Assembly (NCBI GenBank): GCA_027604505.1
Contig: JADIIX010000025.1
Location: 62,001-126,000 of the forward strand
Direction: 5' to 3'
Origin: Gonapodya sp. JEL0774
Taxonomy: Eukaryota
DNA length: 64,000 bases
Positions 5,551 through 63,408 of this stretch are shown piece after piece (position 1 is the first letter of the stretch; each line of letters begins with the position of its first letter). Both the position numbers and the translations under genes were made by a program. A model generated the notes under the pieces. It was not told the DNA's origin, made no database searches, and worked only from the letters and a program-made list of their open reading frames with translations.

Positions 5551-8500
5551 CTAAAAGTTTTCCTTGTGGAACCTGAACACCGTCGGCGCCTCTCCGCCGG
5601 CCTTCCTTCCAACCTTGGAGTGGCGTACGCACGCGTTGGAGATGTCCTTGGCCTGCGTAAAATGACAGGTCGCGTACGAGACCGGATAAGTCACCATTTC
5701 AGGACGTGCTTTTCATGTTCATACAGCACTGCGCTCTCTTCGACGCACCATGGGACCCGGTCCACACAAGAACACGCCCACTTCCTCTCCCTTGTGTGCT
5801 AATGCCTTCTCCTTGAGGATACGATTCCAGTTGGGACGTCCCGAAAACTAGACGGAAAAGCAACGCATATCAGACAAACTCTCTCGCTGCATATACTGCG
5901 ACGCTGGATCACACCGCTGAGGGGCTTCTTCAGCTCACCTGGTTCCACTTCTCGAGATTAACGCGCTTGAGATCGAGTTCACCCGTCGTGTAAGTGTTCA
6001 GCTCTACTTCCCTCGAAAGGTTTTCGTCCGACGCCACCTCCCACTGTCAGGATGAAAACAAAAGCAATCATGTCGAGTGACAAGTGATCACACCGACGTA
6101 AACGAGAATTTCCTCCAAAATCAAGGTATCCACTCACCATCAAATCCTTAAAGCTCTCAAATTCCTGCACATCTCTACATATCCAGTAGAAGTAAACCTT
6201 GAGCAGCCGCGGTTGCTGTGCGCCGGGTCGCGCGGACATTGCAGAGGCGGTGGTGCGGAGGTTGATGGATTTGATGACACTTGCGAACGGGGTGACACCA
6301 ATGCCTGAAGTAATACAATGCATCGCGAAAAGACCAAGGAACAAGTGTCAGCGTATTGGTTGGAGCAGTACAGCTTCAGTCCCCTATTTTGAAACGTCTC
6401 ATCATCCGACAAACTCACCAGCCCCAACCAACACCACCGTATTGTAATCAAATACCTCTTCACTCGCACTTCCATAAGGCCCATCAATCTTCAATGTCGG
6501 CATCTTATCCTCGGGTGGCACAGGAGGCCCAGTTCTGGACCCCCTCGGCGATGGTTTACCCTTCTCCTCCGAGTCCACCATACGAGCCCGCGAGCTGGCA
6601 TCTACGTCGGCGAGGTTGGTGCCAGGCGAGTCAGGAGACGTGGGATACGAAGATTGGACAAAGTCGGCGGCTGTGTTCGCGGCCAGCTTGCCTTCCTTGA
6701 CTTTAGCCATGGCGGCGATCACGTGGTCGCGGAGCTTGGGAGTCCAGTTCTGTGTGTCAGAGGTGAAGTAAATGGAGAAAGGATGTTGTTGTTCTGGTCA
6801 GGAGTGCGCCAATGTTTCAAATGGTTCAACTCACGAATTCCGGTCTGCATCGAATGTGCAACGTTAAGTGCGGTTCTTCTGGAGCAGATGTAATGGTGAA
6901 AGGATGCCACCTGGCACACCAAAATACAATGAATTGTTAATGACAGGGGCACTCTCCAAACTGTCCGGCTCTAGGTGTGATGTGAAAGCCACTCGGAAAC
7001 ACTTACTCGGTGGTAGTTACATCGGGACAGCAAAGATACAGGTACTGTCCCGCTTTGTATCTGTGGATGAGACGAAAAAGTGGATTTTTGAGAGGAAGCC
7101 GCGTTGCTCCGCTCTACAATGGGTCGCAACTCACGAAAACTTTTTGTTACTCTTCACTGCCATGGTAAGCTTCATAACCTCCTTGTTCACCATCTTTGCG
7201 TCCACGAGCGCTACATCGAGTTTGGCACGGCGACTTTGGATGAGTTTTTCGAGGAGGAGGAATGCGAGCGGCCACTATTGAGGACAACAATAAACAGCGG
7301 GTGAGCATGCGAGGCCGAGAGCACGAGTAGACACAAAGACTCACAAGCACAAATATCCAAAAGGGTGGCCCGTGGAGAATGAGGATCGCGATAGTAGGCA
7401 TCCATAGCTTGTGGAACCAGAGGAAAATAGCGTATCCCTGGGAATATTAAAGGGTTACGCTTGGATATTCGCCTGGAAAGCTAACATTGGAAGACCCACA
7501 TCGTAACGCTTCTTGGCGATCGTGAAATATCGGCGAGAAATGAGGGCAGTGACTTTGAAGTGGAGAGCTCAATCAGTCAGAGTCCTCCGATGCACCCCCG
7601 TATTTGGACTCACCAAACATAATTGACATAAGAAGCAATACCAAATGACCGGTCGCTCCGGCTAAGTTGTTGAGCGCTTGGTCCAGGAATGTGGTACCAA
7701 ACACCTGGTTGGACCAGGCAAAGTCGAGGTAGTGCATGACAACATGTCCAACAGTACAGACGAAGATGAACAAGGCTGTCAGCTGAAAGGCCGGTCAAAA
7801 GACGAGAGGAGGGATCAGTTCCCGCATATATGATGGACTTGCAGCACCGACGCCGACGGAATTTTACCTTGTGCATAAGAATGTTATCGTCAAGGGGAAT
7901 CGCGTCGGCAGCCGGTGTGGTCCTGAGCCAACTGAGGACATTTCTCAACACAGGGAGCAAAATGAAAGAGCAGTTGAAGTCAAGTGCCTTGCCGAAACCC
8001 TTCGCAAAAGGGAAGTAGGGTGCACCCGAACCGCCTCCCAAATTGGTGACGTAGCCCCATACCCAGATAGCGATGTTGGCACCAAGGTACAAAAGCAAAC
8101 ACACGATGCGGGATTCGTTCCATTCCCACCAGTCTTGGAACTTCGCGAGACGTCTTCCAAACCACGTTGTGGCCTCCTGATCAAAACCTAGGCTGCCTCG
8201 GCGAGGCGAATCGGGTGAGTCAAGGTGCTTACGACCACGTGTGCGAACAAACAGGTGGGCGAATCGATGAGTAGGGTTCTTTCGTGTGTATAATAGACCG
8301 ATACTAAGTTATGGAAAGAGCAGGACGCTATTGAGTTCAGTCAATGTGGAAAGTTAACTGCCGAACTCACATGAACCCGGCACCAGAAATTGTAATGAGA
8401 CCTCCTGCACCGATCGCGACGGATGCTCCAGCAGTTACGGCATCAGTAGTTACTGTGACTGTCCCTTTTTGGTCACGATTCGTGAACGCATCGTTCCTTG

Positions 8501-10623
8501 TGGACATCAAATTGAAAACTCCAGTGTTATCCATACGAACAAGGCCGACGTTGACGTAAGCGGGAGCGGCATTCAATTGCTTGCAGTTCATGTTGTCGTC
8601 CGCGTTGGCTGTGTTCGGGTCGCATTTTGTCTGATTGAGGTAGGCCATAAAGGCGCTTACGGCAAAGAAAAGGTGTTATAGCGCGAAGACGTCGCTGTAA
8701 ATTGAGTGATGAACTTGACGAACGACGATCCTCACATAGTGGTCCAATTGTTGGTGAAGTGGACTGGTGCATTAGGATTCTCATTCGGGTTCACGTTCAC
8801 AGGAAACGACGTTCCCCGACTTTTCGTTAAAACGATGTTGGACCGGTCGGTCCCTGTTTTTCCATTACCGTTGTTACCACGATCGTTTGCGTCAGAGCCA
8901 GTCCACTGGACATGGAGGTAGTCGCCGAGGGCGACCGAGACATCGGTTGGGACGAAGTCATACTCAACACTGAAAAAACAATACGGATATGCTACATTTC
9001 CAACTCCTTTGTGTGAGTTGCATAAAGACGTACCTCGGGTACACCTGCACAATATTCCCACGTCGGCCACGAACATTCAGATTTACGATCCTCGGACGAC
9101 GAAGCATTCCTTTGTCGATATCGGCAGGTCGACTGCGAATGATAAATACGTGAGATCGGTCCTCGAATGTCCTGAAAAATTGAGCGGTGTTGATGTTTAG
9201 CCTGAGTGGTCCAGAAACGTTTGCTCCGAGACCAACGAAATCCTTGGCAGGATTGCCCGTGACAGGAGAATTGGCACCATTGTAGAGCGCGAAGGTGTTC
9301 CACCCGTCGAAATCCAGCGAGGAAGTATTGTAGCGGAAGCGGACAACACACTTGGTGCCGTCAGGATGAACACCTTCAGGAATACGCCACGTGTACGAGC
9401 TTGATTGCATTGACCTGTCGTTGGAGCAAAGCATGTGTCAACCAAGATTTTTGGCACAGGGTAATCGTCCTTGAAAACAAAATGACTGACTTGGTGTTGC
9501 CCAAATGATTTACGCGAGAATCTTCACAAGCCCAGCAGTCTGGGGCCGACACGTTCCAGTTCTTACCTGTCATCCATGTAGCGCCTCCTCGCGCACAGGA
9601 TATAGGCTGGTTGAACTGGGGGTCCGAGCAAACTCCTTTGTCACCATTCACGTTCTGAGATTCTCTTTGGTACATGCTGCAGCGATCGGGGTTCCCAGTG
9701 CATACAAAAATGTCCCTCCATGGACTAGGGTGCCAATAAGGATAATAGTCGCGTTCTTCGGGGCACTCGAATCCGAACCGTTGGCCGTTATTGTTTTGTC
9801 GTGTAAACTGGGCCGTGTCACCCTGCAAGTTTTGATCCGCAGTGAACAAGCCCTTGTTTCTTTGTCGGGTGACGCAAGATTGATACCAGCTCAGTGGCTC
9901 GTGTTGTCCGTAAGTCAACCAGCCAGCTGAGTTTGGGTCCGTTGGAATGGTGTTGGTGGTGTAGCCGTCTCGAAGAAGAGAATTACTGTCATCACATGTG
10001 TACTTGGAACGGGAGGTGAGTTTTGATAAATTGGGGAAGAGGATGGCTCACGACGAAACAAGTGAACTCGCATACCTGGATAACAACCTCGCATTTGAGA
10101 TTCGGATTGCCCATCCCACACCCGTGTTGGGCACTCCACTGAAGCGTTAGCTCCGACCCTTCATAAAATTGCATGATTCCTTGACCAGCGCCAGGAATGC
10201 TTGTGTTGTAATTGGTGTTCGCGTTCAAGCAGTTGGGGACGCAAGCATCTAACCAATGACTCCGTCAGAACGTGCCCAATCAGCTTGATGGAGCTTTGAC
10301 GCGTCCAAGGCATAAAGTCGACCTACCTCCTACTTGGTAGCCACCGTTTCCGTTGTTCTGACTGTCGAACAACCTGTTGGCATTGTTCCTCCCGTTACTT
10401 TGCTCGTTGAGCTTGTTGTTGGAGCCTTCAAGAGTGCGGATCAACAGATGCGGTAAACACGTGTCCATATACGACAAAGACGGGAGTTATCAAACTCAAG
10501 GACTTCCATGCCGTGACTCTCACCGCGAGGGTTGTGCATGTAAATGTCACCGACCACGGCATGGGCCATCATGAAGATGATGCCCACCGCGGTACTCGTG
10601 CTGATGGCTCGCATGCGCGCCAT
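5551..10623 (-). CDS. DD3-3-like extracellular domain fused to a NADPH oxidase (NOX) flavocytochrome, about 1,200 aa, multi-exon
   Basis: N-terminal signal peptide, then DD3-3 motifs DIYMHNPRGSNNKLNE, NRLFDSQNN, RNKGLFTADQ, ECPEERDYYPYWHPSPW, RGRRGNIVQVYP, VEYDFVP, QWTGS, GTDRSN and STRNDAFTNRDQKG. One TM helix follows, then the NOX core: heme His pairs spaced 14 (H-KLTALFIFVCTVG-H) and 13 (H-KLWMPTIAILIL-H), TG motif (AGATGH), EWHPFTITSAP, DGPYG, GAGIGVTPF, VYFYWICRD, GRPNW, VGVFLCGP and C-terminal FHKENF*. Confidence 0.88.
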
Positions 10624-23873: not shown

Positions 23874-25811
23874 TCATACTACAAACCGCCATATCCTCAC
23901 CACCCCATCATCGCCTCCACTTGCCAGCAACCACCTCTTGCCTTCCTTATCCGCTTCCCCGGTCTTCCCTGCCGCGTCGTTCCATGCAACGCAGTTCACA
24001 TCGAAGGCACCGTGAGGGTGGGTGAGATGGGCGGTGGGGAGGAGCTTAGACGTGGAAGGCTACAATCGTGGAACGTGTAATCGTTTAGGCTGAGGTGTTA
24101 AAAATCAGCGACAAACTCACGTCCACAGTGTAGATGTGAACGGCATTATCCCCTCCGCCCGTCGCCACACACCCGTTCTCCACATTCTTGCTCCAGCTCA
24201 CACTATACACTGGTCGCGTGTGCGCTTTCTCCACCTTTGCCGATTCCACCAACTTGGTCTTGCTCCGACTCCCTCCCACCCCTCCGCTCTCCTCCACCTT
24301 GTACACCCTCACACCCCCATCCTCATTCCCAACTACTAAGTTCTTTCCATCGCCATCCCAATCCACTTCCCACACTGTGCCACCTTTGCAATCCAACAAA
24401 GCCACTTGCTCCCACTCATCCGAGTCCAGGTTTTCCCTCCATAGGCGAATCGTATCATCGTAAGAGACAGAGGCCAAAGTGGTTGTCGAGGCGTTAAAGC
24501 GAAGAGATTTTACGTCGGCGGTGTGATCTTGGAGGACGGAGAGGCAAGAGAACTCCGGCGGTTGGGATGTGGGATCGGCTGAGAGGTAAAGAGGAGCGAG
24601 AAATGGCAGTGAGCGGGAACACTTGCAAACTTCCATCGATCGAGAATACGAAGATCTGAGTTGTCCGATTGGCTGAACCAGTCACCATCTCCAGGCCTGC
24701 TTGTAAACCTTGTCTCACTTCATTCCCTGAGTCCGCAAAAGAGCTTTGGAATTTTCCGCTTGCTTTTGCTGCACCATACGAAAATTTCACCCAACCGTCA
24801 ACAGTAGAACTCACCTTCCCATATCCATACACTCTTATCCCTCCCACAAGTCGCGACCACCCCATCACCCCAGCTTACCGCCTTAACTTCATTCTCATGT
24901 CCCTCCAATACAGCGACACAGGGCCACTCATCCTGACCCCCGTCATCTTCAAATTGCATTCCCAATCCAGGACCCGCATCCCCGGAAAACATGGGCTCTG
25001 GTCGTTCCCAAACGGCGACCGTGGCGTCAAACGAGGCAGAAGCGAGGTAGGCTCCGGTGGGAGACCAGGTGATCCGCCGCACGGTGCGGGAGTGGGAACC
25101 GGAGAGGAGAGCGGTACAGTGCCAGGAGTTAGAGGTGTCCGGTGATTGTGGATTTGAGGTGATGGTATCGGTTAACTCGGTGGTTGGACTCAGTTCGGAC
25201 TTTCGGTGTAAGCCGAGGGAGAGCGGGAATGGGGGCGAGGGGAATGGTGTTCGGGGTTCAATTGCGGAGAGTACGTTTTCCAGTGAAACAACGACAGCGA
25301 GTCAAGTGTTGGAAAAAAACGTAGCCGTGGGTCAAAACGATGACCCGCGTCTTGGAAAGAATCTTTTCTTGTTTTAGTTATCTGCTTCAGTTCTCGAAAA
25401 AATGAATTGCCAGTGCGACCATTTCCACATGACTTCTCCAACCTGAGTCCCGTCATCCCTCGATCACCACCAACAGAAGCCCAGCAGCATAGCGATGTGA
25501 TGCACGCACCTTGAGTGGCATCCAGGACTTGGGTGATGCAGGCACCCATATGCGAACTGACTTGTCGCCAGAGCAAGTCGCCAGTTCTCGTCCCGACGGT
25601 GACCAGGCACAGTGCCAAACACGGTCGGTATGACCTACAGCCGTTCATTTGAGCGGGATGGCCAACCAAGCGGGGTTACAGCGAATCAAACGATTCACAA
25701 GGCAAAAGTGGTGGGCATCAGTTCTTTGCTCATGCAACGTCCATCGCACGGTACCGTCATGAGTGGCTCCACTTCACCTTTAAGTTCTGCCACAAGTTCC
25801 AATTTCGGCAT
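23874..25811 (-). CDS. CIA1: Cytosolic Fe-S assembly WD40 protein Cia1
   Basis: [24 protein letters not shown]...[53 protein letters not shown]...[22 protein letters not shown]...[21 protein letters not shown]...[14 protein letters not shown]. Confidence 0.93.
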
Positions 25812-26512
25812 CACTGCTGATGGGTTCAACTCCGGGGTCGATCTTTGCAACAAGATGATGATGGGGCAATTGGTCCGCCCACCTCGGCCAATTATCGTCA
25901 CCCCGCACTTTACGTAAATTTAATACGTCTCCAGTGGCAGAAGATGCACGCGACCATGTCATTTTATAGTTGCAGAGTGGTGAGGGAATTTTCGTCATTA
26001 TTCGGTTAGTTACACAATGACTTCAGGAGTACCGCCGCGCGAGCATCTCGCAGTTTCTCCACTATGTAGAAAAGGCAACTGTTCTGCTAGGGCTCTGCCA
26101 GTCTTGATCTCCACACTTTGATAGTGGATGACCTAAGAGCGGCATGCCTACGACATCCATTACATTGTATAAGTTATCGTCCGCGTCTAACACAAGTGCT
26201 TGGTATTTTTACCGATTTATCGAGTGGGAAGAGCATGCCAAATTATGCGAACGTCGTAATTTTGTTTCATGGAATCCGTGTTCTGGTGTAAACGAAGCAT
26301 CGACGCTTTGGGGCGTCCACCCAAGTGCCGAAGTATTCTGCCTTTGTCTGAGTCGAGGACCACGATTACCGTGGTTTCTTCTCCAGTGTTCCGGCATCTG
26401 GCAACCGCTGAGATTGTGAGTCTGCGGCAATTCGAATGCGGGAAATGCGTTTGATTTGGACGGTTAATGAATCCAGAATCACACTTCGATAAGTGTTTTC
26501 ACTTGCCAGACT

Positions 26513-28165
26513 ATGTCTGTTTCTCTCCCTTCCTCGTCTGGCTCCAAATCCAAATATCTCTCGCTGCTGACTGCCGCCGACGTCGATGTAGCTGGTCCAG
26601 ACGTATATGAGACTCCTGACGTTGAACCTCGTTCGAGGGCCGATTCCGCCTCCAAGGGTGGCATAGGCAGTCGATCTTCCGAATTTTCGTCGAGGAGAGT
26701 GAATTTGTATTCAGGGAGTGTGACTGAACTGGAGCAGTACGCGGGAGAGTCGGACGAGGATGAGGAGTATGACGGGGTGCATTCTGCCATTTCAAGGGCT
26801 AGACTGGATGTGTCCCGAGCCACGCACCGGTTTGTGGCGGCCGATAAAGACGGTGTCGGAGATCCTTCCGGACTGGCCTACGTGAGCGCACCTCGTGCGG
26901 GGATCGGCAGACGACGTATCAAGGTCGTCGACGAGGTCACAGGACCGGACATGGAGGACGAGACCCTGGAAACCCCGACCGAGAGACTCGCTCGTCTCAA
27001 AGCTGAACTGTACGATCTACGGGTGCACCTGCAGTCTAAAGCTGAACCGGCCAAGCCTTCTGCCGCTGATTCCTCGAAAGGCTCAAGCAAACCAACCGCC
27101 CCGTCGTATTCGTCGCTGCTGGCCAACGTGTCATCCCTCGAGACACAGCTGGATCATGTCGGGGGCCTTGTGGGGTCCTCTCAATCCAATTCAGATGTTA
27201 TCAAGGGAAATAGGGACGCTCGCTTGGAACGGGAACTTGTGGGTCGCATCAAGGCCCTCCAGACACTCCCGCAGCAAGTTTCTACTGGCACAGCATCCAA
27301 TATACGTGCTGCTTCTTCAGACTTGACTGCCGCAACTGCACCCCAACCAACGTCAGGAACACTCACCTACGAACTGCACTACACCCCTACAACATCCCGC
27401 CTCACCCACCTCTCCCGTCTCGCGCACCTTGAATCTCGTCTATCTGCCCTGGAAAAGCTCGTCGGTGCCTCGGATATTCTATTGCGGGACCTACCTGACG
27501 CCGGACTCAACACGGGTACCCTACCAGGTGTCCCAGGCCAACCCACCGTGCTTGCCACCCTTGCCAGGCTCGACGATTTGCTGACACTGGTCACGTCTAA
27601 GCCAGCAATGGATGCTCTTATACCTCGAGTGCGCCGCTTGGTCGCGGAGCTGGAACGGGCTACGGAGCTTACTTCGAGGGGAGGTGGCGGTCGTGATAGC
27701 AGTGCTGCCCCGGGCCGAGGTTCGCAGTCCTCGGTTCCAAGCTCTCCTATTCGCACCGCTCAGCCCACCAGCCCAACGATGACCGCGTCAACTCTGCCAG
27801 GGGGCACTGAGGATGAGGACCCGCAACTCTCCGACCCGGGGGTTGCTGCTCGGGTCGCCCACCTCCACTCCCTCCTCGCCCCACTCTCCCCAATGATTCC
27901 TGCCCTTCCGCACCTCGTCAGCCGTCTCCGCGCCCTCCGTGGTCTTCACGGGGAGCAAGCCCGATTGGCCGCGACCGTTGCGGCTCTGAGTGAGTCGCAA
28001 AAGGGCGTAGAAGGGGAAGTCAAGAGGCTTACCGAGGTTTTGGGAAAAGTTGATGTTGGCATGAAGGAGACGGAGGAGAGGGTAAAGGGAAACGTGGAGG
28101 AGGTGGCGAGGAGGTGGGAGGAGTTGATCGCAAGGTGGGAGAAGGTGAAAGTGGTTTCAAAGTAG
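26513..28165 (+). CDS. DCTN2: Dynactin subunit p50 / dynamitin
   Basis: Intronless 550-aa ORF with KY...PDVYETPD, ETPTERLARLKAEL, LTYELHY, LESRLSALEKLVG, LPHLVSRLRALRGLH and a C-terminal coiled coil. Confidence 0.9.
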   Translation: MSVSLPSSSGSKSKYLSLLTAADVDVAGPDVYETPDVEPRSRADSASKGGIGSRSSEFSSRRVNLYSGSVTELEQYAGESDEDEEYDGVHSAISRARLDVSRATHRFVAADKDGVGDPSGLAYVSAPRAGIGRRRIKVVDEVTGPDMEDETLETPTERLARLKAELYDLRVHLQSKAEPAKPSAADSSKGSSKPTAPSYSSLLANVSSLETQLDHVGGLVGSSQSNSDVIKGNRDARLERELVGRIKALQTLPQQVSTGTASNIRAASSDLTAATAPQPTSGTLTYELHYTPTTSRLTHLSRLAHLESRLSALEKLVGASDILLRDLPDAGLNTGTLPGVPGQPTVLATLARLDDLLTLVTSKPAMDALIPRVRRLVAELERATELTSRGGGGRDSSAAPGRGSQSSVPSSPIRTAQPTSPTMTASTLPGGTEDEDPQLSDPGVAARVAHLHSLLAPLSPMIPALPHLVSRLRALRGLHGEQARLAATVAALSESQKGVEGEVKRLTEVLGKVDVGMKETEERVKGNVEEVARRWEELIARWEKVKVVSK

Positions 28166-43472: not shown

Positions 43473-45796
43473 CTATTCCGACGCCGGCTCATCGGCTTCC
43501 GTCTCCCCCTCCCGAATACTGGGTGTCCTGCTCCTCTCGCTCGGAATCCAATGAAGCACCCTGGTTCTAACTACTTCAGGGATGGAGCAGAGCCGGGCGT
43601 GTAATGACTCGAGCTCCGTGGGAGAACGCAGCTCAACATCGGCAATGAGGTACGAGAAGGAGCCCCTGGACGCGGAAGTTTGACGTTCGATATTGACATC
43701 AGAGAGAATATTGTTGATTTGCTGGGGTTCGTGAATCGAAGAGAAGGACCCGGATGAATGTAAGGATTGCGCTCTCACAGGTATACGTATACAACCTTGA
43801 GCACACCGGGAACATTCTTGTGTACGTTAACCAGCCTGAAGACATGCTCGTTCTCGGGATGACGAGACCCTACAAAAAGGAGCGAGTTTCAACAGTAACG
43901 CTGATCCCAACCTCCAAGAGAAACTCACCCTCCACATTTGCCATATTCACACTTCCATGAGTCCCCGCCATATTCACGTACCCCACTAACTTGGTCGCCA
44001 CTTCTTCTCCAATAGCCTCCTGGGCTTCCTCGGTGCTTCCTCCTACATGAGGAGTTAATATTACATTGGGTACTCCTTGTACTATAGACTCGAAAGAGGC
44101 GTCATTGGTTGATGGCTCGTTTGTGAAGACATCAATAGCAGCACCACCGAGATGACCAGAACGGATAGAAGAGACGAGGGAGGGCAGGTGGATCTAGGCG
44201 GTGAAAGTAGGAAATGGTTGAATGTACCTGAAAATGGCGAGTACGATGCCCCACGAACCACTGATCCACGAGATGTGTCTGGGTGAAATGGATGTAACCA
44301 ACCACAGGTGTAGCACACAATGTTTAGCACTATCTGGTGAGTTCTGAGATGAAAAACTCACTGATAATACAGGCCCCCTTCTTACAAGCTGCCAATTGTT
44401 CAGCACCAATCATGCCATCTGTGTCTTTCGTGGCCGGAACGTGCAATGTGATGAAATCGGAGCGAGAGAGAACGTCAACGACCTGTTGCAACCGCGCAAA
44501 TGCATTGTGCGTCAGTATTAGAGGTGCAAGTCCTCGTCCCAATCCGGTTCCATGAAGCACCGCCAACATTTACCGAGGGCATCATCCTCGCGTTTCCTTT
44601 CGGCCGCATAGGAAAAGCGTCGTAGTACACGACGTTCATGCCCAAAGATTCGGCCATCATGCCGGCGGTGGAGCCAATTTTGCCGTACCCTACGATACCG
44701 AGTGTTTTTCCGTGAATTGTGTGGGAGCCCGTGGACGTCTGTGCGGAACCGACAAAAAACGATGGTAGTGAGTGTCGAATGAAGTTCAAGTCACTGTTGC
44801 GAACTATTGGATTCCCATTGTCATCTCACCTTCACCCACCGCTTGTTGTGCATCAGATTGTTAGAGTCACCAATGCGTCGAGCGAGAGCGAAAACATTCG
44901 CGAGAACAAGCTCAGCTATGCAATAAGAGAATAACAAGTCGGAGATGTTCCATCGCCACGAATACCGTGATTCATTCTCCTCCCTTCTCTCTTTATAACT
45001 CACCTACACTCCTAGTGCTCCCTCCCTGTGAATTAAACACTACAATGCCCATCGCAGTACAGGTTTCGAGATCAATCTGGTTGGTACCGATCCCGAACGC
45101 TCCGACGGCAATGAGGTTCTGGGCGTACTGGAGCACCCGTTTGGTAATTTTGGTTTTTGAGCTGATGGTGAAAAGCATATGAAGGGTCGAAGATGTTGGG
45201 AGGGAAACAGTCGTTTGTTCAAAATATTTTTGCGTGCAAACAGGAAAATTTCACACATATCGGCTCACCGGATTCCTAGAACATGAACAGTCGGTATGCG
45301 AGCAATAAGCTCCTCTTCCGTCAGGGACTTCTTCTCTGTTTCGATCTGAAAATGTGTGAAAAGGACGGAACTTGATTATCTTGTGAACACCCGTCCTCAC
45401 CCTGAATCCAGCCTGTCTCAGAACTTCCACACCCTTTTCGTTGATATTCTCCAGGAGCAGAACCTTCATCTCTGAAGCCTCCTTGAATGGATCGAAGAAG
45501 TTTAATGCATCATCCTAGCGGTGTGGTGTTCGGTTGTCAGTTTCGGTTGTGGACATTGGGAGACAAAACCTTTTGAGGGAGACGTACGTGGTGGGCCGCC
45601 CCGTGAACAGTCTTTAACGGTGCCAGCGATGAATGACAGAAAATATGACAGAATGTAATCAAAGAATATGTTGAAAGATGATGGAATCGTCCAGTCATGA
45701 TTGAGCGGGAGAGAAACTCGAACGACGCGAGAGGAAAGGGAATTGGATACGAACCTCGAGCACCCATGAAGCCGGAAGAGCAGCCGTTGTCACCAT
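43473..45796 (-). CDS. D-3-phosphoglycerate dehydrogenase (SER3/SER33-like) with C-terminal ACT-like region
   Basis: KVLLLENIN, GIGTNQIDL, GKTLGIVGYGKIG, DFITLHVP, INTSRG, GAAIDVF..EP, NVILTPHVGGSTEEAQ and the C-terminal YLIADV...TRVL. Confidence 0.92.
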
Positions 45797-46478: not shown

Positions 46479-47252
46479 TCACCGCCTCTTCCTTGCGGGC
46501 GGCCTACATCCAGCGTGCCTGACCGGCGTCACGTCCTCCACCCTGACCAACCTCCAACCAGCCGCCCTGAACGCACGAGCACTCTGGTCCCGACCTGGTC
46601 CAAACCCAGAAAGTCTCAGGGCTACTCCACCGGTCATCGGCACATCACTGAGCTTCTCCACAATGTCCAGGCAAACAGCGTACGCCGCATCAGGGGTTCC
46701 CCTATTAGCTTTCTTGAACCCAACTTTACCTGCCGACCGCACGCACAGGGTTCGGCCCGCAGAGTCAGACACGCTCACAATCGTGTTTCCTCGGCGTGCA
46801 GTGACGGTGACCACATGAGGGGGGCTGTAGGAGTTTCGGGGATCAATAAGCCCCGACGTAGGATCGCGCGTTTCGTTAAGGAGGGCTTCGAGGGTGGAAC
46901 GCGACGAGCCACGGGAGAGCGTGGGTGCTACGGAAGGCGTAGAAGATAGAGCCTTCAGAGGGGTTCCAAAGAGTTCTGCTGTGATGGATTTGCCCTGCGA
47001 GGACGACTCCAGAGGTTCGTATGGCAAGGTTGGACTCGGTTGCGAGAATCCTCTTGATCCATTGGTCGTAGAAGAATACGAATTTGCTGTACTAGGAGTT
47101 GAAGCGATTGTCCTGGACGCTCCAATGAGATTTGTCGCAAGTGGGTATCCCCTCAGAGCTCCTGTCGACAGCGATGAAAGAGAGGGGGACGAGATTGAAT
47201 GAAGCAGACTCTGCGCACCAAAAGCGCTTAATCTAGCGCAAGAAGCGGCCAT
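46479..47252 (-). CDS. MRPS11: Mitochondrial ribosomal protein uS11m
   Basis: Presequence-like N-terminus; GNTIVSVSD, SAGKVGFKK, GFGPGR and EDVTPVRHAGCRPP are uS11 motifs. Confidence 0.9.
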   Translation of the reverse strand: MAASCARLSAFGAQSLLHSISSPSLSSLSTGALRGYPLATNLIGASRTIASTPSTANSYSSTTNGSRGFSQPSPTLPYEPLESSSQGKSITAELFGTPLKALSSTPSVAPTLSRGSSRSTLEALLNETRDPTSGLIDPRNSYSPPHVVTVTARRGNTIVSVSDSAGRTLCVRSAGKVGFKKANRGTPDAAYAVCLDIVEKLSDVPMTGGVALRLSGFGPGRDQSARAFRAAGWRLVRVEDVTPVRHAGCRPPARKRR

Positions 47253-47525
47253 CGCCGGTGCGATTATGGAATTACGATATTCTTGTGGATGGTTCTAAAA
47301 TGGTGCCCCCGGCGACCAAAATTGGACTTTGAAAATAACCTTGCAATTTGCACGACTGAGCAACAAGATATCTAGTATGAGTAGCGTCGCTGGTTTCTGT
47401 TCCTCTTTTTCGTCTCTTCTGTCCCTGGTTTTACCTCCCGACGGCGAAGCCCCCCTCGTTCTTCGCTACACACAACCCGATTTGACGAGAATCTCTGATC
47501 CGTATTAAACACTCAAAGAAAAGCT

Positions 47526-50500
47526 ATGGCAGAAGGAAGTGTAACTCCAGATCAACACTCATCCCCCGCTGGATTGCCATCATTCTTCAATTCAATGGTG
47601 CAACCCGGACTCTCTGTCCGATCGAACAACCCTCCTGAACCCAACCCCTCTCAGACCTTCTCTCTTCGCCTCTTCGAAGGTGTCTGGATGCTCATCTCTG
47701 TTGTTCCACAATACTTGCTTTCACTCACGAAGCTCAGCACGCTTGTGAAGCAAAGGATGGTCCGCTGCCTCGTGGCTCTGTACATAGCGTACTCGATTGT
47801 ACTCATCAAGCCCATAGCGCGCAGTTTGCCTCCCTCTATTACTGGACTGCCTCTGGCCCTTGTCTTCATTCACGTACGTTAATGAAAGCACTTTCCACGT
47901 CGGTGCCTTTTTCGCACATCTCTTGACACCGCCCTCTTCCCCGTTTGGAATTAGCCCGGCCGCACTCTCGGAGCCGTCCTGGAAACTACTGTTGTTTCTG
48001 GTTTCACTGGGTCGCTGGTGGCAAGTCTGGTCCACTTGGCTGCTGAGGCTGTGACCGTGCAGCATAACCAGATCCTTCTCGCTACGCACCCCAACAACCC
48101 AACGGTAGTCGAAGAGAGCAACAAGGGGTCCATAATTAAGCTGATATTTATGCTTGCTGCTGTTTTCGCAACGTCATGGATTCGCTCCAGATTCGCACGT
48201 CTACGCACTTTCGCCTTAATTGCTGGCACCACAGTTGTGGTGAACATGGAAGTGGCACGGGGCAACATCCTTCAAACTGACGCAACTCGCTCCTTCGGCC
48301 CCTTTCTCAATTTTATTATTGCTTCTCTCATTTCATTGAGCTCGGCGCTCATCCTCTGGCCAGACAGTGCCAACGGTCAAGTCAAGCTCGCAGTAGTAGC
48401 CTCTCTTGACGCTATGCGTGCTTCTCTTGACGCTCAGCTTGAGTGCTTCCTTCCCAACACCGTTGGAAGTGAGCAAGGAGAAGGAACGGGAGGTCCAGGC
48501 ATTGTAGCCAAACTGGCAGCAGATTTCGCCGCCGCGAAAGAGGCGCAAGACAGATTATTATCTTGTGTGAAGCAGTTAGCGACCGCAAGAGATGAGGCGA
48601 GGATGGAAGTTTCATATGGATAGTAAGTACTTTCGCCGACTCAAAGCAAATCATCAATTGCCTGACACACCACTTTTGAAGCTATGATCCACATGACCTC
48701 GGACTTGTGTCAAAGGCAGTTCAGCGCTTGAGTCAGGATATGGGTGGCATGTAAGCTTTGCTTTCAAAATGCACGTAGTGCCTCCCGTGCGCAAAGCGTC
48801 TTCACCCACCCCGTTTTTCAGATACTCTGCCACGCTCGCTAAAAAGGACTGGCTTGATCCTTCTTCAAGTGACGTTGCATTGCACCAAATGACCAAATCT
48901 CTGGTTCCCACTCTGCAAGCGCTTGGTACCGAATGTACAGCCACCCTTGCGCAAATGAAACGTGCATTCCACAATGTGAAAGCACGTGCTGTTACACCTT
49001 CTGGTGGTCTATATGGCCGGTTGGTGGAAGAAGGAGCCGTCAGCGTTTCTGATGAAGTTTTTCTTGATGACGAGCGGGCAAGACTGGAGGTAGCCATCCA
49101 AGAATTCGACACATCGAAATTCGAGCTCGAAGAAAGACTCTTTCGTGAAGCTGGAACAGGATCACATTTGTTACTGATGGAACTCTCAAACACCGACGCA
49201 CCCAACCTTAATGATAAGGTGAGAATCGTAAAAACATGTTTAACGTCACGATTTCTCCGGAAGATTGCTCTAAGCCATCCACGCATAAAGGTTCTTATTC
49301 TCCACTTTTTCATCTTCTCTTTCCGGGAGTTTGCCCAAGAACTCAACAGAGTGACCTCGTACGTAAAAACACTCTATTCCACCCGACAAACTGTTACAAA
49401 GCCTTGGCTTCCTCGAGCGCTGTTTAAGCGCAAGGCTGGTGCTAATGAATGGGATCATGACAGCTCATTAAAGTCCCTCCCCGATCATGAAGGCATCCGC
49501 CCTGTGAAGAACTTTGGTTCCACTCGGGAGACACAGAAACCGGGACTGTTAAGGAACCTCCTAGACGATACTCTTTACACATCTCACACATTTTTCAGTT
49601 CTCCTCATACTTCATACGCTATTACTGTTACTGTGACAGTTTTCCTGGCGTCCGTGTTGGCGCTGTTTGATGCAACAAACGCTGTAAGTACGTGAACTTC
49701 ATCACGAACACGCACCCGTTCTACTTAGCTGATGGTATTCCAATCAAACATCAGTTCTACTTGGACAAGAAGGCATATAACACCGCTTTCGCCGCGCTCC
49801 TTTGCTTGAGCCCCAGTGTAGGCTCCACAATGCAGGCCACCGCACAGAGAACCGCTGGCATGATATTTGGTGCCATTTGGGGCTACTTGTCTTGGTGGTC
49901 CATTCTTCCGGGCAACGGATACGTCATAGCTGTGATGCTACTGCCGTTCGCGGTTGTCGTCGTGCACCTCCTTTTAGGTCCTTCAAATGTTGTAGCAATC
50001 ATGGCATTCATCACATTCACGAACGTTGTGAATCCACTTTATGTAAGTGCTTTTGGTGGCGCGGCTAAATTGTTTTTCCGATAGTTTTTCATCTTTCGAA
50101 CAATTAATGTACCTAGATGCTTGACGAGGCACCTATCCGTAACCGGGAGGTGATTTTGGAAAGGTTTCTTGAGGTCCTTGCGGGTGCTGTCCTGGCCCTC
50201 GTGCTTATGGCAGTCGGTAGCCCTACTTTGGCGAAAGTGACACTGAGGGAAGAACTAGCGAAGGTGAGTCTTCGTCATATTATCTATCGGAAGTTCAGAG
50301 TTATAACAGAACCAGTTAACATTTAGACTCTTTATGACGTTTCGATGCTTTATCAACGTCTTGCCCAATCATTCTTTTCGGCTACCCTTTCGCCAAAAAA
50401 GAATGCTATGATACCCTTAGAAACTGAAATTTCGGGAGAAAACTTCGAAGCATGTGCCGCGGACAACGTGCTCTTAACACCTGTGACTAAAACCGCAGCA

Positions 50501-51487: not shown

Positions 51488-53437
51488 TCACCAGCTCACC
51501 ACCGCAAAGTCCTTCAAAAGAACACCCCACAGTCTTTTCTCGCCATTTAATCCGGATATTACAGGATCAAGAACACGCGCCGCACCATCCCACTCGTCTA
51601 TTGGCACCTCCCACTCGTCTTTTGCTGCCAGTGGAGTTGGGCGCTCATCGGTAACCCAACCAGTATCAACTGATGTCATCAAAATATTTCTTTTCGAAAG
51701 CCCGATGGCAGATGTACGAGTGAGCATGTTTAATGCAGCTGGTAGAAAAATCGTGACTAAGGTATTCCTTAGCCAACGGTGCCACTAAATTTGCAGCTCA
51801 CCTTTGGCCATGTTTGTGTGCGGATGTCGTGTAGATTTTGGTCGATTGAATTGCCCTTCTGCAGCGCTCACATTGACAATGTACTTGTCACAGTTCCGAC
51901 CCAAGGTGCTCCCTTGGTTCTTTCTCGTTGCCTCCATGACCGGGAGGAGCTCAGAAACTAAAATCCACGGTACGAAAGTGTTGATCACTTGGCACTCCAG
52001 AAACTCGACTGTATTGACTTGGCCGATCTCAAGCATCCACGAGTTGCTCGAACGGAGATCCACCTGCTGACCGTGACGATCCAACGCTCCGTCGGGAAAA
52101 AGTGATGCGTCCTCATCAAGGAAGTCAGATTGCAGGAGGTGAGTCTGTGACAGATCAGCGCTGTAACTGTCACGAGATGGCCATCCCGCTGTTCCTGCCA
52201 CGAGCAAAGAGGATGAAACTGCTGACATTTCTGAAGCCACACCCATTCCTAGCAATCTAGGATTTCTGAGTGTAGTGGGATCACCACATGTGACTCTCCG
52301 TACGGTCGGCGCTCCGGACTGGGATCGAGTCAGAGTAAACACCGCAACAACATCCAAAACCGATTGAGGAAGGTGGGCAGACTCCACTGAGAGTAAGTGC
52401 TGGTAGAATTTTGGGGGTCTCTAGTTAATATGCACATGAGAGGGAGTGAGTTGTGCCACGCATTTGAAGAAATTGGAAAACTGCCCTCACTCGAATAGTT
52501 TGCGCGGCATTGTTGATGAGTACATCCAGACGATAGAAATGCTCCTTTACATGAGACGTAAAGCAGTGTACCGCATTAACGTCTCGAAAATCGATCCCAT
52601 AGATAAACAGGCGATCTTTGAAGGAGGAGAAGTCTTTCTCTTGTGAGAAGCGCCAGGCACAGTCATGTGGAAAGCGAGTTGTCACAATGACCGTTGCGCT
52701 CATCCTCAAAAGACGCAGAACAATACAGTATCCAATCTTAAGGAGAAATTTAATGAGCGAAAAATGTCTCCGAGGACCTGCACAGCAACTTTTAACCTAC
52801 TTTCAATCGCCCACCAGTCACAAGGCACACAAAACCTTCCATTTTAGCAACAGTATCACGCTTCTGATAGTTCACATCACCACAAGCTTGGCACAATTTA
52901 TCGTAAAATGTGTGCAACTCCGTGTACGGTTGATGGCAACAGTAACAGTCTCTTGGGCGATTGAGCTTCCTCGCCTTGGTTCTAAAGGGTTCATCAGGAG
53001 ATGAGAGCAATCGTTTCCTGGAAGAAATGTGGTGGTCGTTTTCGAGAGTGTTATCAAACAATCCTTCCTCCCCAACCTGGGGACAAGGCGTGGACCCGAC
53101 CTTCCATGAGAGTGAACATCGTGATCTCGAGATTCGGGCACAACATAGAAAAGCTTACCAGTTGTTTGCTTCTTGACAACCGAATGCCCGTTCTGGCCAT
53201 GGAGGCACGATCTTTCTCACGATTGGTAGCCCGCCGCCGTGCTGTGATCCTGTCATTTTTGCTCGGAAACAACGCCAGCGATGCTGTTCGGAAAAGGTCT
53301 GCGATCTCCTTCGACTCATTTGCTTGCGATCGATAATCGGGATTTTCTTGATAAACTCGCAGAACTTTCAACGCCGTTTGAAGTTCCTCTCCAGTGAAAC
53401 ACGATGTCCAATGTGGCGGAGAAGCTTTGCTCGACAT
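51488..53437 (-). CDS. Short-chain dehydrogenase with N-terminal Cys/His (CxxC...HxFY..LCxxC) region
   Basis: CYCCHQPYTELHTFYDKLCQAC; LVTGGRLK|IG; VTTRFPHD; LDVLINNAAQT; IVNVSAAEGQF; HPHTNMAK; SVDTGWVTDE; DGAARVLDP. Confidence 0.85.
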
Positions 53438-60101: not shown

Positions 60102-61142
60102 ATATTTGGTTGTTGCGCCAGGTTCCGGGCAGATAATACGCTCTCAATCATGGATTGTACCATATGCTCGTTCGCTGCATAGAACGAGGCCTACGTTGTC
60201 TTGATTGTTTCAAACTTGTAACTTATTCATGTCATTTGCTGGATTACTATGCATCGAATATCCTTACATTATTAGTGCAACGCCGGCAGTTCGCGTACAT
60301 GTAATGGTATCCGAACACACTGGCAGGTGAGTGAGAGGTCTGGACCTAAGTGGGGGATTAGAGCTTCTAACCAAAACATGAGTTGTTATTCGTATGTGTT
60401 TAAGAGAAATGTCTCAACCGGTCCTTATAACTTTTGCGAGATTGGCTGGTGCACCGAATAGTGATCTTGAATGACGAAGCAAAGAGAGACAACAATCAGG
60501 TTACGTTATTTCATTTTTGTTGCTTCCCTTCTGACAATTTTTTTCCTGCCAATGTCCCCTTAGAACCCACCGAAATGCCTGCATGTCACATTTTCTGGCC
60601 AATTCCTCTCCCAGATAAGCGGTAAGCGTGGCAGTACTCGGTCAATTACAGAAGTTTCGCCTGCCTTCGGGTGGGAAAAAATTTATCACTGGTGCTGTCA
60701 TGACTTTATCATGACTTAGACAAGGTTCGGTCGCGGCTAAATGTTTCCTCCTCCCCAGTAGCAAAGCCCGTTACCGAAAGTGCGACTGAGCCCAAATCAT
60801 GCTCATCTCCTCAAAACGGATGTTATTTTTAACTTCACTAGTGATCCCCGTTTGAGGCAAGACCGGTGAGCATCTCTTGAATCTCCCATCGTTGTCATTC
60901 CTCCACCACTTGTCAGTGCCAATAATCCTTGCAAGAGTTGCGGAAGGGTTGTCCTGCACTATATCGCTAATAAGTTCTTCCTGCCATACCTTGTGATTTC
61001 TTATGGTTTCTTGGTGCAGCGAATTCTCTTGGAATGACGCATTGTCGCTTTGAATTCAACAAAACCTCCGACAAACGCATTGTCGCTTTGAGTTCAACAA
61101 AGACTTCGACTGTCCTTCTCTACACTCCACTTACTTGTAGCG

Positions 61143-63408
61143 ATGCACAATCCCCTATACCCCTCTGTTTCCATCGAAGATGTGCCAAACGTGGCAAAAA
61201 GTACTGTTTCTTCAAGCAGTTCCCTCCCTCACGCATCATTCTCCAACATCAACAGTCCTAGCGAGTCCTTTCAGCAAGCATCTCCTGAACATGCAGCTGA
61301 TACTACCATAACTTTCAGCATTTCGTCCAAACCAAAGTTCCACGCATCGCTTCCCTACTCGAACAGTCATCGTTCCCATGATACCAAATTGGACGTGGAG
61401 CAAGTAGTACAAAATGCTACCCAAATTATTCAAAATGATGACGGTATCGGTCTGGATGAAGTGGATGAATTGGATGCTTTCGAAATAGTCTCTGGTGCAT
61501 CTCTTGAAATCGATCAGTTGGATCCCTCTTCTCGAGATCACAGAGCATACAAAGTCAAAAGGGTAAGATGTGCTATCATTGCGTCTGCTTCAAACTTGCG
61601 TTCCAACTGGCTCGTCCACAAGTGTCTGAATTGCGGAAAGACTTTCGATCGCATGTGGAATTTCAAGTCACATATGCTCGTGTGTACCGTGTTGCTTCTC
61701 TTTGATGTTATCAAACGTTTAATACGTAAGAATGCCTTTGAACCGAAGACTCATAGTGGCGAGAAAAGATTTCCCTGTGACATCTGCAACATGCGCTTTG
61801 CGCGGGCTTACGACCTCAAGAGGCATGGCCGATTTCACACCGATGAAAAGTAGGTTACGTGCTAGTGTGTTAATGCTCTTCAAAACCGATCTGATTCTCT
61901 CATTACCCCCTCCGCGCGACCTAGGCCGTATCAGTGCTCTATGTGTCAGCAGTCGTTCTTCCGATCAGATGCTCTCAAACGACATGAAAAGCAGTGTGGC
62001 CGGAGCTCCCCGGAGCCACCCGCAAAAAGCAAGGAGCATCGCCGCTCTTCTCGTGCTCGAAGAAAAAGTGTATCAAAGACCTCAGCCTCAGCAGCACCGG
62101 TGCAAAGTAACGAACGACCACGATCCAAGTCAGCTTCTGTATTATCCGCAACAACGGAGACAGCTTCGGCATCTCCTTCCGTCTCCGTGGATACCATGCC
62201 AGCTTCAACAATATCAGAGTCTAGCTCTCACGTATTCACCGACGGTTCATCCGCGGCACCCTACAGCGGCCAAGCTGCGACGAATCCTTCCGTACCAGCA
62301 TATGAAGTCTCTACCAGCCTCGCAGCAGCTGCCTCGATTAATGCATCTTCGCAATCCTTCCTTCCCATCAGTCCTTACTTATTTCCATCTCCGCTCGATG
62401 AAAACGGCAATCCGACTGCCTTTCTGGAGGATTCCGAAGCTGCTGCTTCTGCAGCTGCGGTAGCATCCCGATATCTACCTAGTCTGGCAAGAGCGGCAAC
62501 GCTCGCGGCACAAGGGAGGGCGAGCGCCGCGCAAGCAGCGGCTGCCGCCGCCACCTATGCCGCTGCTTACGCACATCTTCTTCCAGCTGAGGTGCAGGTG
62601 AGAGTTTTCTAGTCTTGATTCATCTGATTTTTCGATCTCTTATGCTCGCCGATATCAGGCTGCCTTCGCACAAGCCGCACATTTGGCTCAGGTCCATGCA
62701 GCTCAGCAGGCAGCAGCCGCTGCTGCCGTGTCTCGTGCTTCCAGCTCTTCTGAGTCGGCGCCACTGGACCGAGAGGACACACCAGGCCACCCCACGACTA
62801 ATCCGTGGGCCTCCTTATACCCTAACTACCCTGACTATGGATACGATTTTGGAGACTCGGAAAGAAGCCTTGATGATGGTGGAGAAGCCCGCGGGAGTGC
62901 TGGGGCAGATCTGAGAAACACCGCTGAAGTTCAGAATTATGGAGGATACTCCAAGTATGAGGACTATCAGCCGGCTGTTGGCATCGATGGAGCGTTTGAG
63001 GTGGGGGATGGAGGCGACTACCAGCAGAGCTCGCTATACTCTGAACCCACACATAATTACGATGAAGGCGCACAATCGTCTCCAACCCTAGGCGAGGACG
63101 GGATAGAGCAGTCTGAAGTGACGTATGGAGATCCAGCGGAAAGCTACATTTCCTCTAACGGCAATGTACAAGAGCTTCACAGCGAATTTGTGTCGGATTC
63201 TGGGGCGACCATTGGAGACACTGCTGAATACCACTCTGACTTGCCCAGACTGGACTCCACGTTCTCAGTCTCCAGGACTCTGCCTGCAGCCGTCTTGACA
63301 TCCGTCAGTGATGCTATTGTGGAGACAAATTCGGACGTTGAGCCCGATGCGGCTTTCCGACGCAAGAGGCGAAAGCTGGAGCAAGGGGACACAGAACTTC
63401 GACTTTAA
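61143..63408 (+). CDS. C2H2 zinc-finger transcription factor (three fingers)
   Basis: CLNCGKTFDRMWNFKSHML|THSGEKRFPCDICNMRFARAYDLKRHGRFHTDEK|RPYQCSMCQQSFFRSDALKRHEKQC, followed by an Ala-rich and acidic tail and basic RRKRRK. Confidence 0.9.

What the first reader, a model, noticed from the sequence alone, without database searches (positions are those of the whole stretch)
5551..10623. DD3-3 ectodomain-NADPH oxidase fusion: a Duox-like 7-TM oxidase with a non-peroxidase extracellular domain
Seen in sequence: exons 10623-10524, 10425-10327, 10248-10076, 10002-9491, 9414-9034, 8969-8736 and 8655-8371 splice in phase to a signal peptide plus a ~570-aa Cys/Asn-rich domain. A 67-nt intron (8370-8304) completes a TM helix (AGASVAIGAGGLITISGAGFI|IGLLY). 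A 71-nt exon and a 45-nt intron (stop-free even if retained) then run in frame into NOX TM1. There is no in-frame ATG between the upstream stop near 8310 and the NOX domain, and no room for a separate promoter. Established knowledge: the four heme His, TG motif, HPFT, GIGVTPF, GRP, CGP and terminal ENF mark a true NOX rather than a ferric reductase. The ectodomain motifs match my recollection of Dictyostelium DD3-3, a protein of unknown function. Duox has the same ectodomain-TM-NOX layout but with a peroxidase domain and EF-hands, both absent here, and fungal NoxA/B/C lack ectodomains. Inference: an undescribed NOX subfamily in which an extracellular DD3-3 domain gates ROS production or acts on the ROS produced. 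It would also give a functional clue for stand-alone DD3-3 proteins.
Basis: partly seen in the sequence, partly recalled or inferred. Interest (0 to 1): 0.92.

Follow-up and report, generated by a model that had tools for sequence, protein, structure and literature searches.

The report
NADPH oxidase with LPMO-like outer domain
This gene of an early-branching fungus, shared by many unrelated single-celled eukaryotes, joins a membrane oxidase predicted to make superoxide to a large outer domain predicted to fold like the copper enzymes that cut polysaccharides, so the protein likely makes its own oxidant for an attached metal site.

Summary
The fusion is real. Nineteen GT-AG exons give a 1202-aa protein: signal peptide, DD3-3 ectodomain, one extra TM helix and a complete NOX core. 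One open exon (8303-7868) codes both the end of the DD3-3 helix and NOX TM1-3. Orthologous fusions, several from complete transcripts, occur in chytrids, aphelids, Amoebozoa, a malawimonad, Discoba, green algae, a pelagophyte and dinoflagellates. Both halves cluster in trees. All 77 fusions scored keep the four heme His, His119 and Thr/Ser178-Gly179. New here: DD3-3 is predicted to be an LPMO-like beta-sandwich plus a cupredoxin fold lacking the type-1 Cys. A near-invariant mature N-terminal Asp (157 of 160) aligns with LPMO His1, and a second His is near-invariant. The fold support is moderate (Z up to 5.9; no sequence-profile signal). Best reading (0.38): the oxidase feeds H2O2 and electrons to a tethered Asp/His metal site. 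Main rival: a ligand-gated oxidase. Corrections: the 45-nt 'intron' is probably coding, and NCBI's model misses exon 1. No paper describing the fusion was found; this scan noted it before in another chytrid genome.

The parts
5551..10623 (-). Whole gene, 19 exons, 1202 aa: 10623-10524, 10425-10327, 10248-10076, 10002-9491, 9414-9034, 8969-8736, 8655-8371, 8303-7868, 7782-7614, 7552-7500, 7437-7345, 7274-7135, 7060-7007, 6910-6835, 6749-6419, 6304-6138, 6043-5939, 5847-5749, 5652-5551
10549..10623 (-). Predicted signal peptide, aa 1-25 (missing from NCBI's model)
   Evidence: hydropathy; orthologue starts; cleavage site inferred, no predictor run
10546..10548 (-). Asp26, predicted mature residue 1; sits where LPMOs have His1
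   Evidence: Asp in 157 of 160; its equivalent aligned to the first residue of 17 of 20 LPMO-type chains
9129..10548 (-). Predicted LPMO-like beta-sandwich with large conserved insertions, aa 26-390
   Evidence: models of orthologues P0012 and P0046; fold searches
10124..10126 (-). His108 (W-x-x-Q-H), candidate second metal ligand
   Evidence: 107 of 107, 155 of 156; position by motif, no residue-level structural alignment
9165..9173 (-). Arg376-Thr-Phe378; the Phe is a candidate for the LPMO buried aromatic residue
   Evidence: Arg and Phe each 114 of 117; matched by eye to AA10 'NAF'
8448..9089 (-). Predicted cupredoxin-fold domain, aa 404-569; Ser551 in place of the type-1 Cys
   Evidence: Z 7.5, rmsd 2.4, 94 aligned to 5fc9; Foldseek E 1.1e-3 auracyanin; Cys in 0 of 24 fusions, 64 of 179 others
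8291..8432 (-). Extra TM helix (TM0), aa about 575-599, split by intron 7
8304..8370 (-). Intron 7 (67 nt, GTGAGT..TAG); joins the ectodomain exon to the NOX exon
7868..8303 (-). Exon 8: one open frame from the end of TM0 through the cytosolic linker to NOX TM3 His739
8188..8232 (-). 45-nt GT..AG segment, stop-free, probably coding
7266..8128 (-). NOX transmembrane domain, aa 654-848: heme His739/753/823/836, His757 (NOX2 His119), Thr784-Gly785, Lys696 (NOX2 Arg54 position)
6465..7214 (-). FAD-binding domain (HPFT, DGPYG)
   Evidence: PF08022 E 2e-18
5554..6446 (-). NADPH-binding domain (GIGVTPF, GRP, CGP, terminal ENF)
   Evidence: PF08030 E 2.5e-26

Best explanation
The gene encodes one seven-helix membrane protein whose NOX core is predicted to pass electrons from cytosolic NADPH to oxygen outside the cell, and whose ectodomain, predicted to have an LPMO-like fold, likely binds a metal through its N-terminal Asp and a conserved His and would use that oxidant on a cell-surface substrate. 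Shown: the gene structure, the fusion, its conservation, the NOX signature residues, the near-invariant Asp and His. Predicted: 7-TM topology with the ectodomain outside; LPMO-like plus cupredoxin folds; Asp at the His1 position. Inferred: metal binding by the free amine and carboxylate of Asp1 plus His (amine plus Asp side chain makes the same six-membered chelate ring as His1 of the brace; own chemical reasoning); priming reduction and H2O2 supplied by the NOX; a glycan or wall-polymer substrate. It would work like Duox (oxidant source tied to an oxidant user) or like an oxidase-LPMO pair in one chain. The fusion itself is about 0.97 certain; the confidence given is for the mechanism.
For: Fusion; 82 of 128 NOX-bearing proteins retrieved also match the ectodomain (includes the window's own and one with reversed order); complete transcripts from several supergroups. 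Co-inheritance: 33 fusion NOX cores split from 18 others at 99/99; 58 of 59 fused ectodomains form one group, support 98. ROS-type core: four heme His, His119, T/S178, G179 in 77 of 77, the signature of PMC3591440 and PMC9421330. Fold: models at pLDDT 90 and 89; of 48,161 chains the top 9 and 20 of the top 50 are LPMO-type, 116-163 residues aligned against 88-129 for other rows, 17 of 20 starting at the Asp (same pattern with a second model). Site: Asp 157 of 160, His 107 of 107; Tyr3 and Pro7 at the same places as in AA10. 48 of 370 columns are at least 97% identical in 156 sequences (some chosen by motif), which fits an active site. LPMOs need reduction and H2O2, also from outside oxidases (PMC10472438, passages). 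Stand-alone DD3-3 proteins carry glycan-binding WSC (1) and SUEL (2) domains among 88 scanned.
Against: Best Z is only 5.8-5.9 with rmsd 3.5-5.2, below the tool's mark of 8; generic Ig folds reach 5.3. Foldseek gives no hit at E 0.001 (AA15 at E 1.4). Profile comparison with AA10 gives nothing: probability 0.1 or less, 96 of 100 shuffles score as high. His1 is strictly conserved in active LPMOs, and its loss cut copper binding in CWR-1 (PMC10472438, PMC9550227, passages). LPMO-fold proteins can be redox-inactive (Bim1, PMC7529816 abstract). An invariant Arg near the site could pair with the Asp instead of a metal. The cupredoxin lacks its Cys, so no electron relay is evident. Most DD3-3 proteins have no fused NOX (118 with a TM tail against 59 fused). 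The models are of orthologues, not of this protein, and no coordinates were available to check that Asp, His and Phe meet.
Confidence: 0.38

Rival explanations
1. Ligand-gated oxidase: the ectodomain is a non-catalytic receptor that binds a glycan, a neighbouring cell, a metal or H2O2 and switches the NOX on through TM0 and the cytosolic linker, in place of EF-hands.
For: No EF-hand pattern in 77 of 77 fusions, so another switch is needed. SH3 in the linker of P0071 and in the tails of stand-alone P0229 and P0249, WW in P0261. An antibody to the ascidian DD3-3 homologue triggers phenol oxidase release (PMC6916515, passages); a sponge homologue rises after microbial signals (PMC6208332, passages); the LPMO CWR-1 acts in allorecognition without catalysis (PMC9550227, passages).
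Against: About 50% identity across supergroups with many invariant charged residues is unlike a polymorphic recognition surface. The linker is poorly conserved in length and sequence. It does not explain the need for Asp at residue 1, unless the ligand is a metal.
Confidence: 0.25
2. Structural role: the ectodomain is a dead enzyme fold that drives folding, dimerisation or surface delivery of the NOX, as the peroxidase-like domain of mammalian Duox is thought to (recalled).
For: His1 and the type-1 Cys are both replaced. LPMO-fold proteins without a brace are known (LsAA9B, cited in PMC10354095, passages).
Against: The same residues are kept in stand-alone DD3-3 proteins that have no NOX to stabilise and in giant-virus copies.
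Confidence: 0.12
3. Metal uptake: the ectodomain captures Cu(II) or Fe(III), as Bim1/X325 does, and the NOX-like core reduces it for import.
For: X325 is among the top fold matches (Z 5.4-5.5); two copper-protein folds sit on a transmembrane reductase; an O-donor favours harder ions (own knowledge).
Against: His119 and T/S178-G179, which separate NOX from metal reductases, are in 77 of 77 (PMC3591440 section 14). The closest solved structures are NOX5 and NOX2.
Confidence: 0.1
4. ROS conversion: the metal site turns the NOX's superoxide into H2O2 or removes it, with no outside substrate.
For: A coral protein is listed as 'Protein DD3-3 (SOD domains)' (PMC12960093, passage and supplement row), which may be a second fusion to a ROS enzyme. 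Not checked on sequence.
Against: No SOD domain among the 88 plus 9 DD3-3 proteins scanned with Pfam. The large conserved insertions suggest a bigger ligand.
Confidence: 0.08
5. Artefact: two adjacent genes, a secreted or anchored DD3-3 ending at the TGA in intron 7 and a separate NOX.
For: No transcript of this organism was seen. The unspliced frame does stop at 8369-8367. One relative (P0003) is annotated as ectodomain only.
Against: Exon 8 begins with the end of the DD3-3 helix and its conserved basic-NP tail and runs open into NOX TM3, with no Met before TM3. Complete fused transcripts exist in distant lineages.
Confidence: 0.02

Closest known systems
DUOX (dual oxidase)
   Same: Signal peptide, large ectodomain, one extra TM helix, cytosolic linker, NOX core.
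   Different: Ectodomain is DD3-3 (predicted beta-sandwich plus cupredoxin), not a heme-peroxidase fold; no EF-hands; NOX core is closer by score to NOX5 and NOX2 (E 1e-54, 3e-52) than to DUOX1 (E 6e-36).
NOX5 / RBOH-type single-chain NADPH oxidases
   Same: Heme His, His119, Thr-Gly, Lys at the Arg54 position as in human NOX5, short extracellular loops, FAD and NADPH motifs.
   Different: No EF-hands; a 550-aa ectodomain and TM0; separate from the cyanobacterial EF-hand NOX rows in the tree.
LPMOs (AA9/10/11/13/15/16) and LPMO-like X325/Bim1
   Same: Predicted fold and register from residue 1; second His after a strand; Tyr3 and Pro7; a late invariant Phe.
   Different: Asp instead of His1; about 200 extra residues in insertions; no sequence-profile match to AA10; tied to a membrane oxidase.
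Cupredoxins (plastocyanin, purple cupredoxin, auracyanin)
   Same: Predicted fold of aa 404-569, Z 7.0-7.5.
   Different: Type-1 Cys is Ser or Asn in all 24 fusions scored; the loop is a conserved S-T-R-N-x-x-F-[ST]-N-R.
Stand-alone DD3-3 (Dictyostelium DD3-3, ascidian HrSMLP1)
   Same: Whole ectodomain and TM helix, about 45-55% identity, same Asp and His.
   Different: They end after a short tail. Fused ectodomains carry a G-D-x-C-x-P-x-C insert (40 of 47 fused, 2 of 96 stand-alone).
DspNOX of demosponges (PMC9524095)
   Same: Unusual NOX with extra domains; one species has cupredoxin domains.
   Different: PAS domain, extra TM bundle, EF-hand, cupredoxins at the C-terminus; no DD3-3.

Membership tests
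NOX (ROS-generating NADPH oxidases) | Ferric_reduct + FAD_binding_8 + NAD_binding_6 in order | tested here: met
   E 1.8e-8, 2e-18, 2.5e-26
NOX (ROS-generating NADPH oxidases) | Four heme His (101, 115, 209, 222) | tested here: met
   77 of 77 fusions; mapped on NOX2/NOX5
NOX (ROS-generating NADPH oxidases) | His119 and Thr/Ser178-Gly179, which separate NOX from FRE | tested here: met
   His 77/77, Thr 62 + Ser 15, Gly 77/77; criterion from PMC3591440 section 14
NOX (ROS-generating NADPH oxidases) | Makes superoxide or H2O2 | not testable with these tools
   needs an assay
DUOX | Ectodomain + extra TM before the NOX core | tested here: met
   hydropathy and alignment; topology predicted
DUOX | Peroxidase-homology ectodomain | tested here: not met
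   no peroxidase Pfam at E 1; model is mostly beta and coil
DUOX | EF-hands in the linker | tested here: not met
   0 of 77 by pattern; none by Pfam in the fusions scanned
DUOX | NOX core groups with DUOX | not tested
   no DUOX, RBOH, animal NOX5, NoxC or NoxD was among the rows of the trees
LPMO | LPMO beta-sandwich fold | tested here: inconclusive
   top 9 of 48,161 chains are LPMO-type but Z is at most 5.8; Foldseek silent
LPMO | His at mature residue 1 | tested here: not met
   Asp 157, Asn 2, Gly 1 of 160
LPMO | Second brace His | tested here: inconclusive
   His108 near-invariant and after the expected strand; no residue-level superposition
LPMO | Buried Tyr/Phe under the metal | tested here: inconclusive
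   Phe378 114 of 117, matched by eye only
LPMO | Detectable sequence homology | tested here: not met
   no LPMO Pfam, no PDB hit at E 10, hhalign with 71 AA10 not above shuffles; other LPMO families not compared
LPMO | Binds Cu and oxidises a polysaccharide | not testable with these tools
   needs protein work
Type-1 blue copper cupredoxin | Cupredoxin fold | tested here: met
   Z 7.5, rmsd 2.4, 94 of 95 residues; Foldseek prob 0.99, E 1.1e-3
Type-1 blue copper cupredoxin | His...Cys-His-Met ligand set | tested here: not met
   Cys in 0 of 24 fusions; ligand positions assigned from a recalled motif
DD3-3 family | Full-length homology to named DD3-3 proteins | tested here: met
   the family has no Pfam model
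Ferric reductase (FRE/FRO) | Lack of His119 and Thr178 | tested here: not met

The most novel reading that the evidence does not exclude
An ancient eukaryotic NOX subfamily carries its own oxidant-using enzyme: DD3-3 is a distant LPMO relative with an 'aspartate brace' (amine and carboxylate of Asp1 plus His) and is a metalloenzyme in all its hosts, from social amoebae and invertebrates to giant viruses, fed by a fused or a separate NOX.
Probability: 0.3. Interest if true: 0.95.

Novelty: new variant of a known kind. Interest (0 to 1): 0.8.

Why it matters
It adds a widespread NOX architecture that the family surveys read here do not list, in lineages said to have few or no NOX genes (chytrids, dinoflagellates, green algae, pelagophytes). 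It also gives a testable biochemical idea for DD3-3, a family of unknown function with 513 clusters at E 1e-30 that is tied to allorecognition and immunity in invertebrates. If the Asp/His site binds metal, it is a natural variant of the histidine brace, of direct interest to LPMO and copper chemists. Two point mutants and a metal analysis would test it.

Tried and rejected
No whole genome is held, so paralogues and stand-alone DD3-3 in this organism were not checked. No sequencing run was listed; this is no evidence on expression. The complex prediction of ectodomain with NOX TM domain of P0006 gave no verdict. Foldseek against PDB and viral models gave no hit at E 0.001 for the N-terminal domain. 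hhalign of DD3-3 with one and with 71 AA10 sequences, whole or cut to core blocks, gave no signal. The ESM Atlas returned only DD3-3-type or unnamed clusters. A first tree with the mixture model timed out. The motif count of the second His was spoiled by a look-alike motif and is not used. In one search Arg374, Phe376, Arg379 and Phe383 (P0012 numbers) and the AA10 control residues are invariant by selection, so one search is quoted instead. Prokaryotes: 2 loci in 185,579 genomes, both looking like mis-binned viral or eukaryotic DNA. The 'unclassified chytrid NOX' of PMC9421330 are other proteins: the two chytrid sequences seen start differently, and four DD3-3 motifs occur in none of its 4 supplements, nor three in the 4 of PMC3591440 (line breaks could hide a motif). 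The original DD3-3 paper (PMID 15883003) is not held and is known only through citations.
Full report
1. Gene. A full model of 19 exons gives 1202 aa with 18 GT..AG introns of 61-114 nt and one terminal stop. Exon 4 finds a 100% match, NCBI HDU93_004319 of Gonapodya sp. JEL0774, annotated as one 1183-aa protein with the three NOX domains. The model equals it from Gly34 on (NOX junctions fitted to it). The key fact is exon 8 (8303-7868): it opens with the last residues of the DD3-3 TM helix and the basic-NP tail seen in orthologues, and runs without a stop or a Met to NOX TM3. The 45-nt segment is probably coding.

2. Spread. Exon 4 has 1185 relatives at E 0.001 among 1293 candidates; an ectodomain orthologue has 2142 clusters at E 0.001 and 513 at 1e-30. 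Of 355 proteins held at that point, 128 carry a NOX core and 82 of these also match the ectodomain. This is a biased sample of best hits, not a census. Named fusions: Spizellomyces, Rhizophlyctis, Gorgonomyces, Boothiomyces, Globomyces, Phlyctochytrium, Borealophlyctis (partial), two Amoeboaphelidium species, Cymbomonas (partial), Symbiodinium, Durusdinium, and transcript-derived proteins of Ceratiomyxa, Gefionella, Artemidia, Gymnodinium, Nephroselmis and a pelagophyte. No named animal, land-plant or Dikarya fusion appeared in the lists shown; absence was not tested.

3. One origin. In a FastTree tree of 119 NOX cores (9 of 128 left out for missing motifs) the 77 fusions fall on one side, with 9 rows lacking an ectodomain inside; most of these come from short contigs or start in TM0 or the linker and look truncated, which I did not prove for each. 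IQ-TREE on 33 fusions and 18 others gives the split at 99/99. The other rows are EF-hand NOX of cyanobacterial type, fungal, dictyostelid and one sponge NOX; DUOX, RBOH, animal NOX5, NoxC and NoxD are missing, so the root and sister group are open. In a tree of 255 ectodomains, 58 of 59 fused ones form a group (support 98) that also holds 4 of 118 stand-alone and 8 of 78 unclassified rows. Whether the wide spread reflects descent from an early eukaryote or transfer was not tested.

4. NOX core. Best solved relatives are human NOX5 and NOX2. In 77 of 77 fusions the four heme His, His119, Thr/Ser178, Gly179 and a Lys at the Arg54 position (as in NOX5) are kept; the NADPH-domain Cys and the terminal Glu are in 73, with 4 gaps. 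These mark ROS-making NOX according to PMC3591440 (section 14 and passages read) and PMC9421330 (part 2 of 6 and passages read). No EF-hand was found.

5. Ectodomain. It has no Pfam or PDB sequence match. AlphaFold models of two orthologues, P0012 (56% identical) and the shorter P0046, are confident (pLDDT 90.3 and 89.0). The last 165 residues match cupredoxins (Z 7.5 and 7.0), but the type-1 Cys position is Ser or Asn in 24 of 24 fusions and Cys in 64 of 179 others. The first 370 residues match LPMO-type chains: the top 9 rows and 20 of 50 (AA10, AA13, X325, AA15, fusolin, AA9, AA11, AA16; fusolin as an LPMO is recalled). Seventeen of the 20 alignments start with the model's Asp on the chain's first residue, two are off by one, one starts two earlier. 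That Asp follows the signal peptide in 53 of 53 and 157 of 160 sequences. A His at the end of W-x-x-Q-H is in 107 of 107. Side by side, AA10 'H-G-Y-v-x-x-P', 'f-t-W-x-y-T-A-x-H' and 'N-A-F' face DD3-3 'D-v-Y-l-h-n-P', 'L-x-i-E-W-T-n-Q-H' and 'R-T-F'; this is a match by eye. Against it: Z is at most 5.9, Foldseek and hhalign give nothing. I put real LPMO ancestry at about 0.65 and a working metal site at about 0.45.

6. Mechanism. Active LPMOs need a priming electron and H2O2, which can come from other oxidases (PMC10472438, passages). A NOX delivers both at the outer membrane face, under the tethered domain. This gives the best reading (0.38). Brace-like sites vary from chelators to redox-inactive carriers (PMC7529816, abstract), an AA9 without a brace is known (PMC10354095, passages), and an LPMO acts in allorecognition without catalysis (PMC9550227, passages). 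With the ascidian and sponge data on DD3-3 (PMC6916515, PMC6208332, passages) these keep the receptor reading at 0.25.

7. Literature. 'DD3-3' as a whole word is in 11 papers and as a substring in 30 (mostly unrelated strings); no listed paper held both 'DD3-3' and 'NADPH oxidase' (papers with more terms rank first). Searches on chytrid or dinoflagellate NOX architecture and on LPMO-oxidase fusions showed no description in their listings. Passages of PMC9421330, PMC3591440, PMC9524095 and PMC7730656 do not describe it. PMC6916515 notes only a region like an FNIII domain. PMC10022678 and bioRxiv 10.64898/2026.09.20.752982 (passages) mention DD3-3 as a single-pass protein and an epidermal marker. 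Subscription journals and bioRxiv supplements were not searchable, one supplement of PMC12960093 was cut, and databases already hold these proteins (some named 'Protein DD3-3' with NOX domains; one JGI label 'ferric reductase/plastocyanin'). The scan's own notes hold the same fusion from another chytrid genome, without a fold in the lines shown.

8. Verdict. A real, old and widespread NOX variant, a member of the NOX family by every sequence test, not a DUOX, and not an LPMO by the His1 test, though its ectodomain is predicted to be built like one. Interest 0.8.

Noticed in passing
L003:4995-6860, L004:4953-6803, L005:1918-3702, L006:2386-4188: Four giant-virus genome bins (GVMAG) carry intronless stand-alone DD3-3 genes with signal peptide, Asp1 and a C-terminal TM helix.
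   Followed up: partly
L001:3822-5513: A contig binned as Bacteroidetes holds a stand-alone DD3-3 beside an intronless RNA polymerase Rpb2 gene and a Lys-rich ORF; it looks like giant-virus DNA in a bacterial bin.
   Followed up: partly
window:10426-10623: The public model HDU93_004319 starts inside intron 1 and so lacks the signal peptide and Asp1; several other public fusions (P0005, P0080, P0003) also look cut at one end.
   Followed up: yes
P0071, P0229, P0249, P0261, P0177, P0167, P0178, P0049, P0135: DD3-3 relatives with added SH3, WW, WSC, SUEL lectin, fn3 or DUF7495 domains. P0002 is a tandem double DD3-3.
   Followed up: partly
PMC12960093 supplement, RMX55427.1 / KAK2572311.1: A coral protein listed as 'Protein DD3-3 (SOD domains)': possibly DD3-3 joined to another ROS enzyme.
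   Followed up: no
P0264: A sponge (Corticium) record of 1821 aa made of three NOX2-like units in a row; tandem genes merged by annotation or a real triple.
   Followed up: no
window:11037-11516 (-): The upstream neighbour on the same strand ends with a weak match to NADH:flavin oxidoreductase (PF00724, E 0.007, below cut-off).
   Followed up: partly
window:3433-4383, 24088-25301, 26471-28162, 44478-44825, 46482-47294, 49671-50081, 52428-52796, 61092-61850: Other genes by Pfam: ribosomal S7e, WD40, dynamitin, 2-hydroxyacid dehydrogenase, ribosomal S11, FUSC-like, short-chain dehydrogenase, C2H2 finger (106 of 143 long frames scanned). No copper or glycan gene was seen near the NOX.
   Followed up: no
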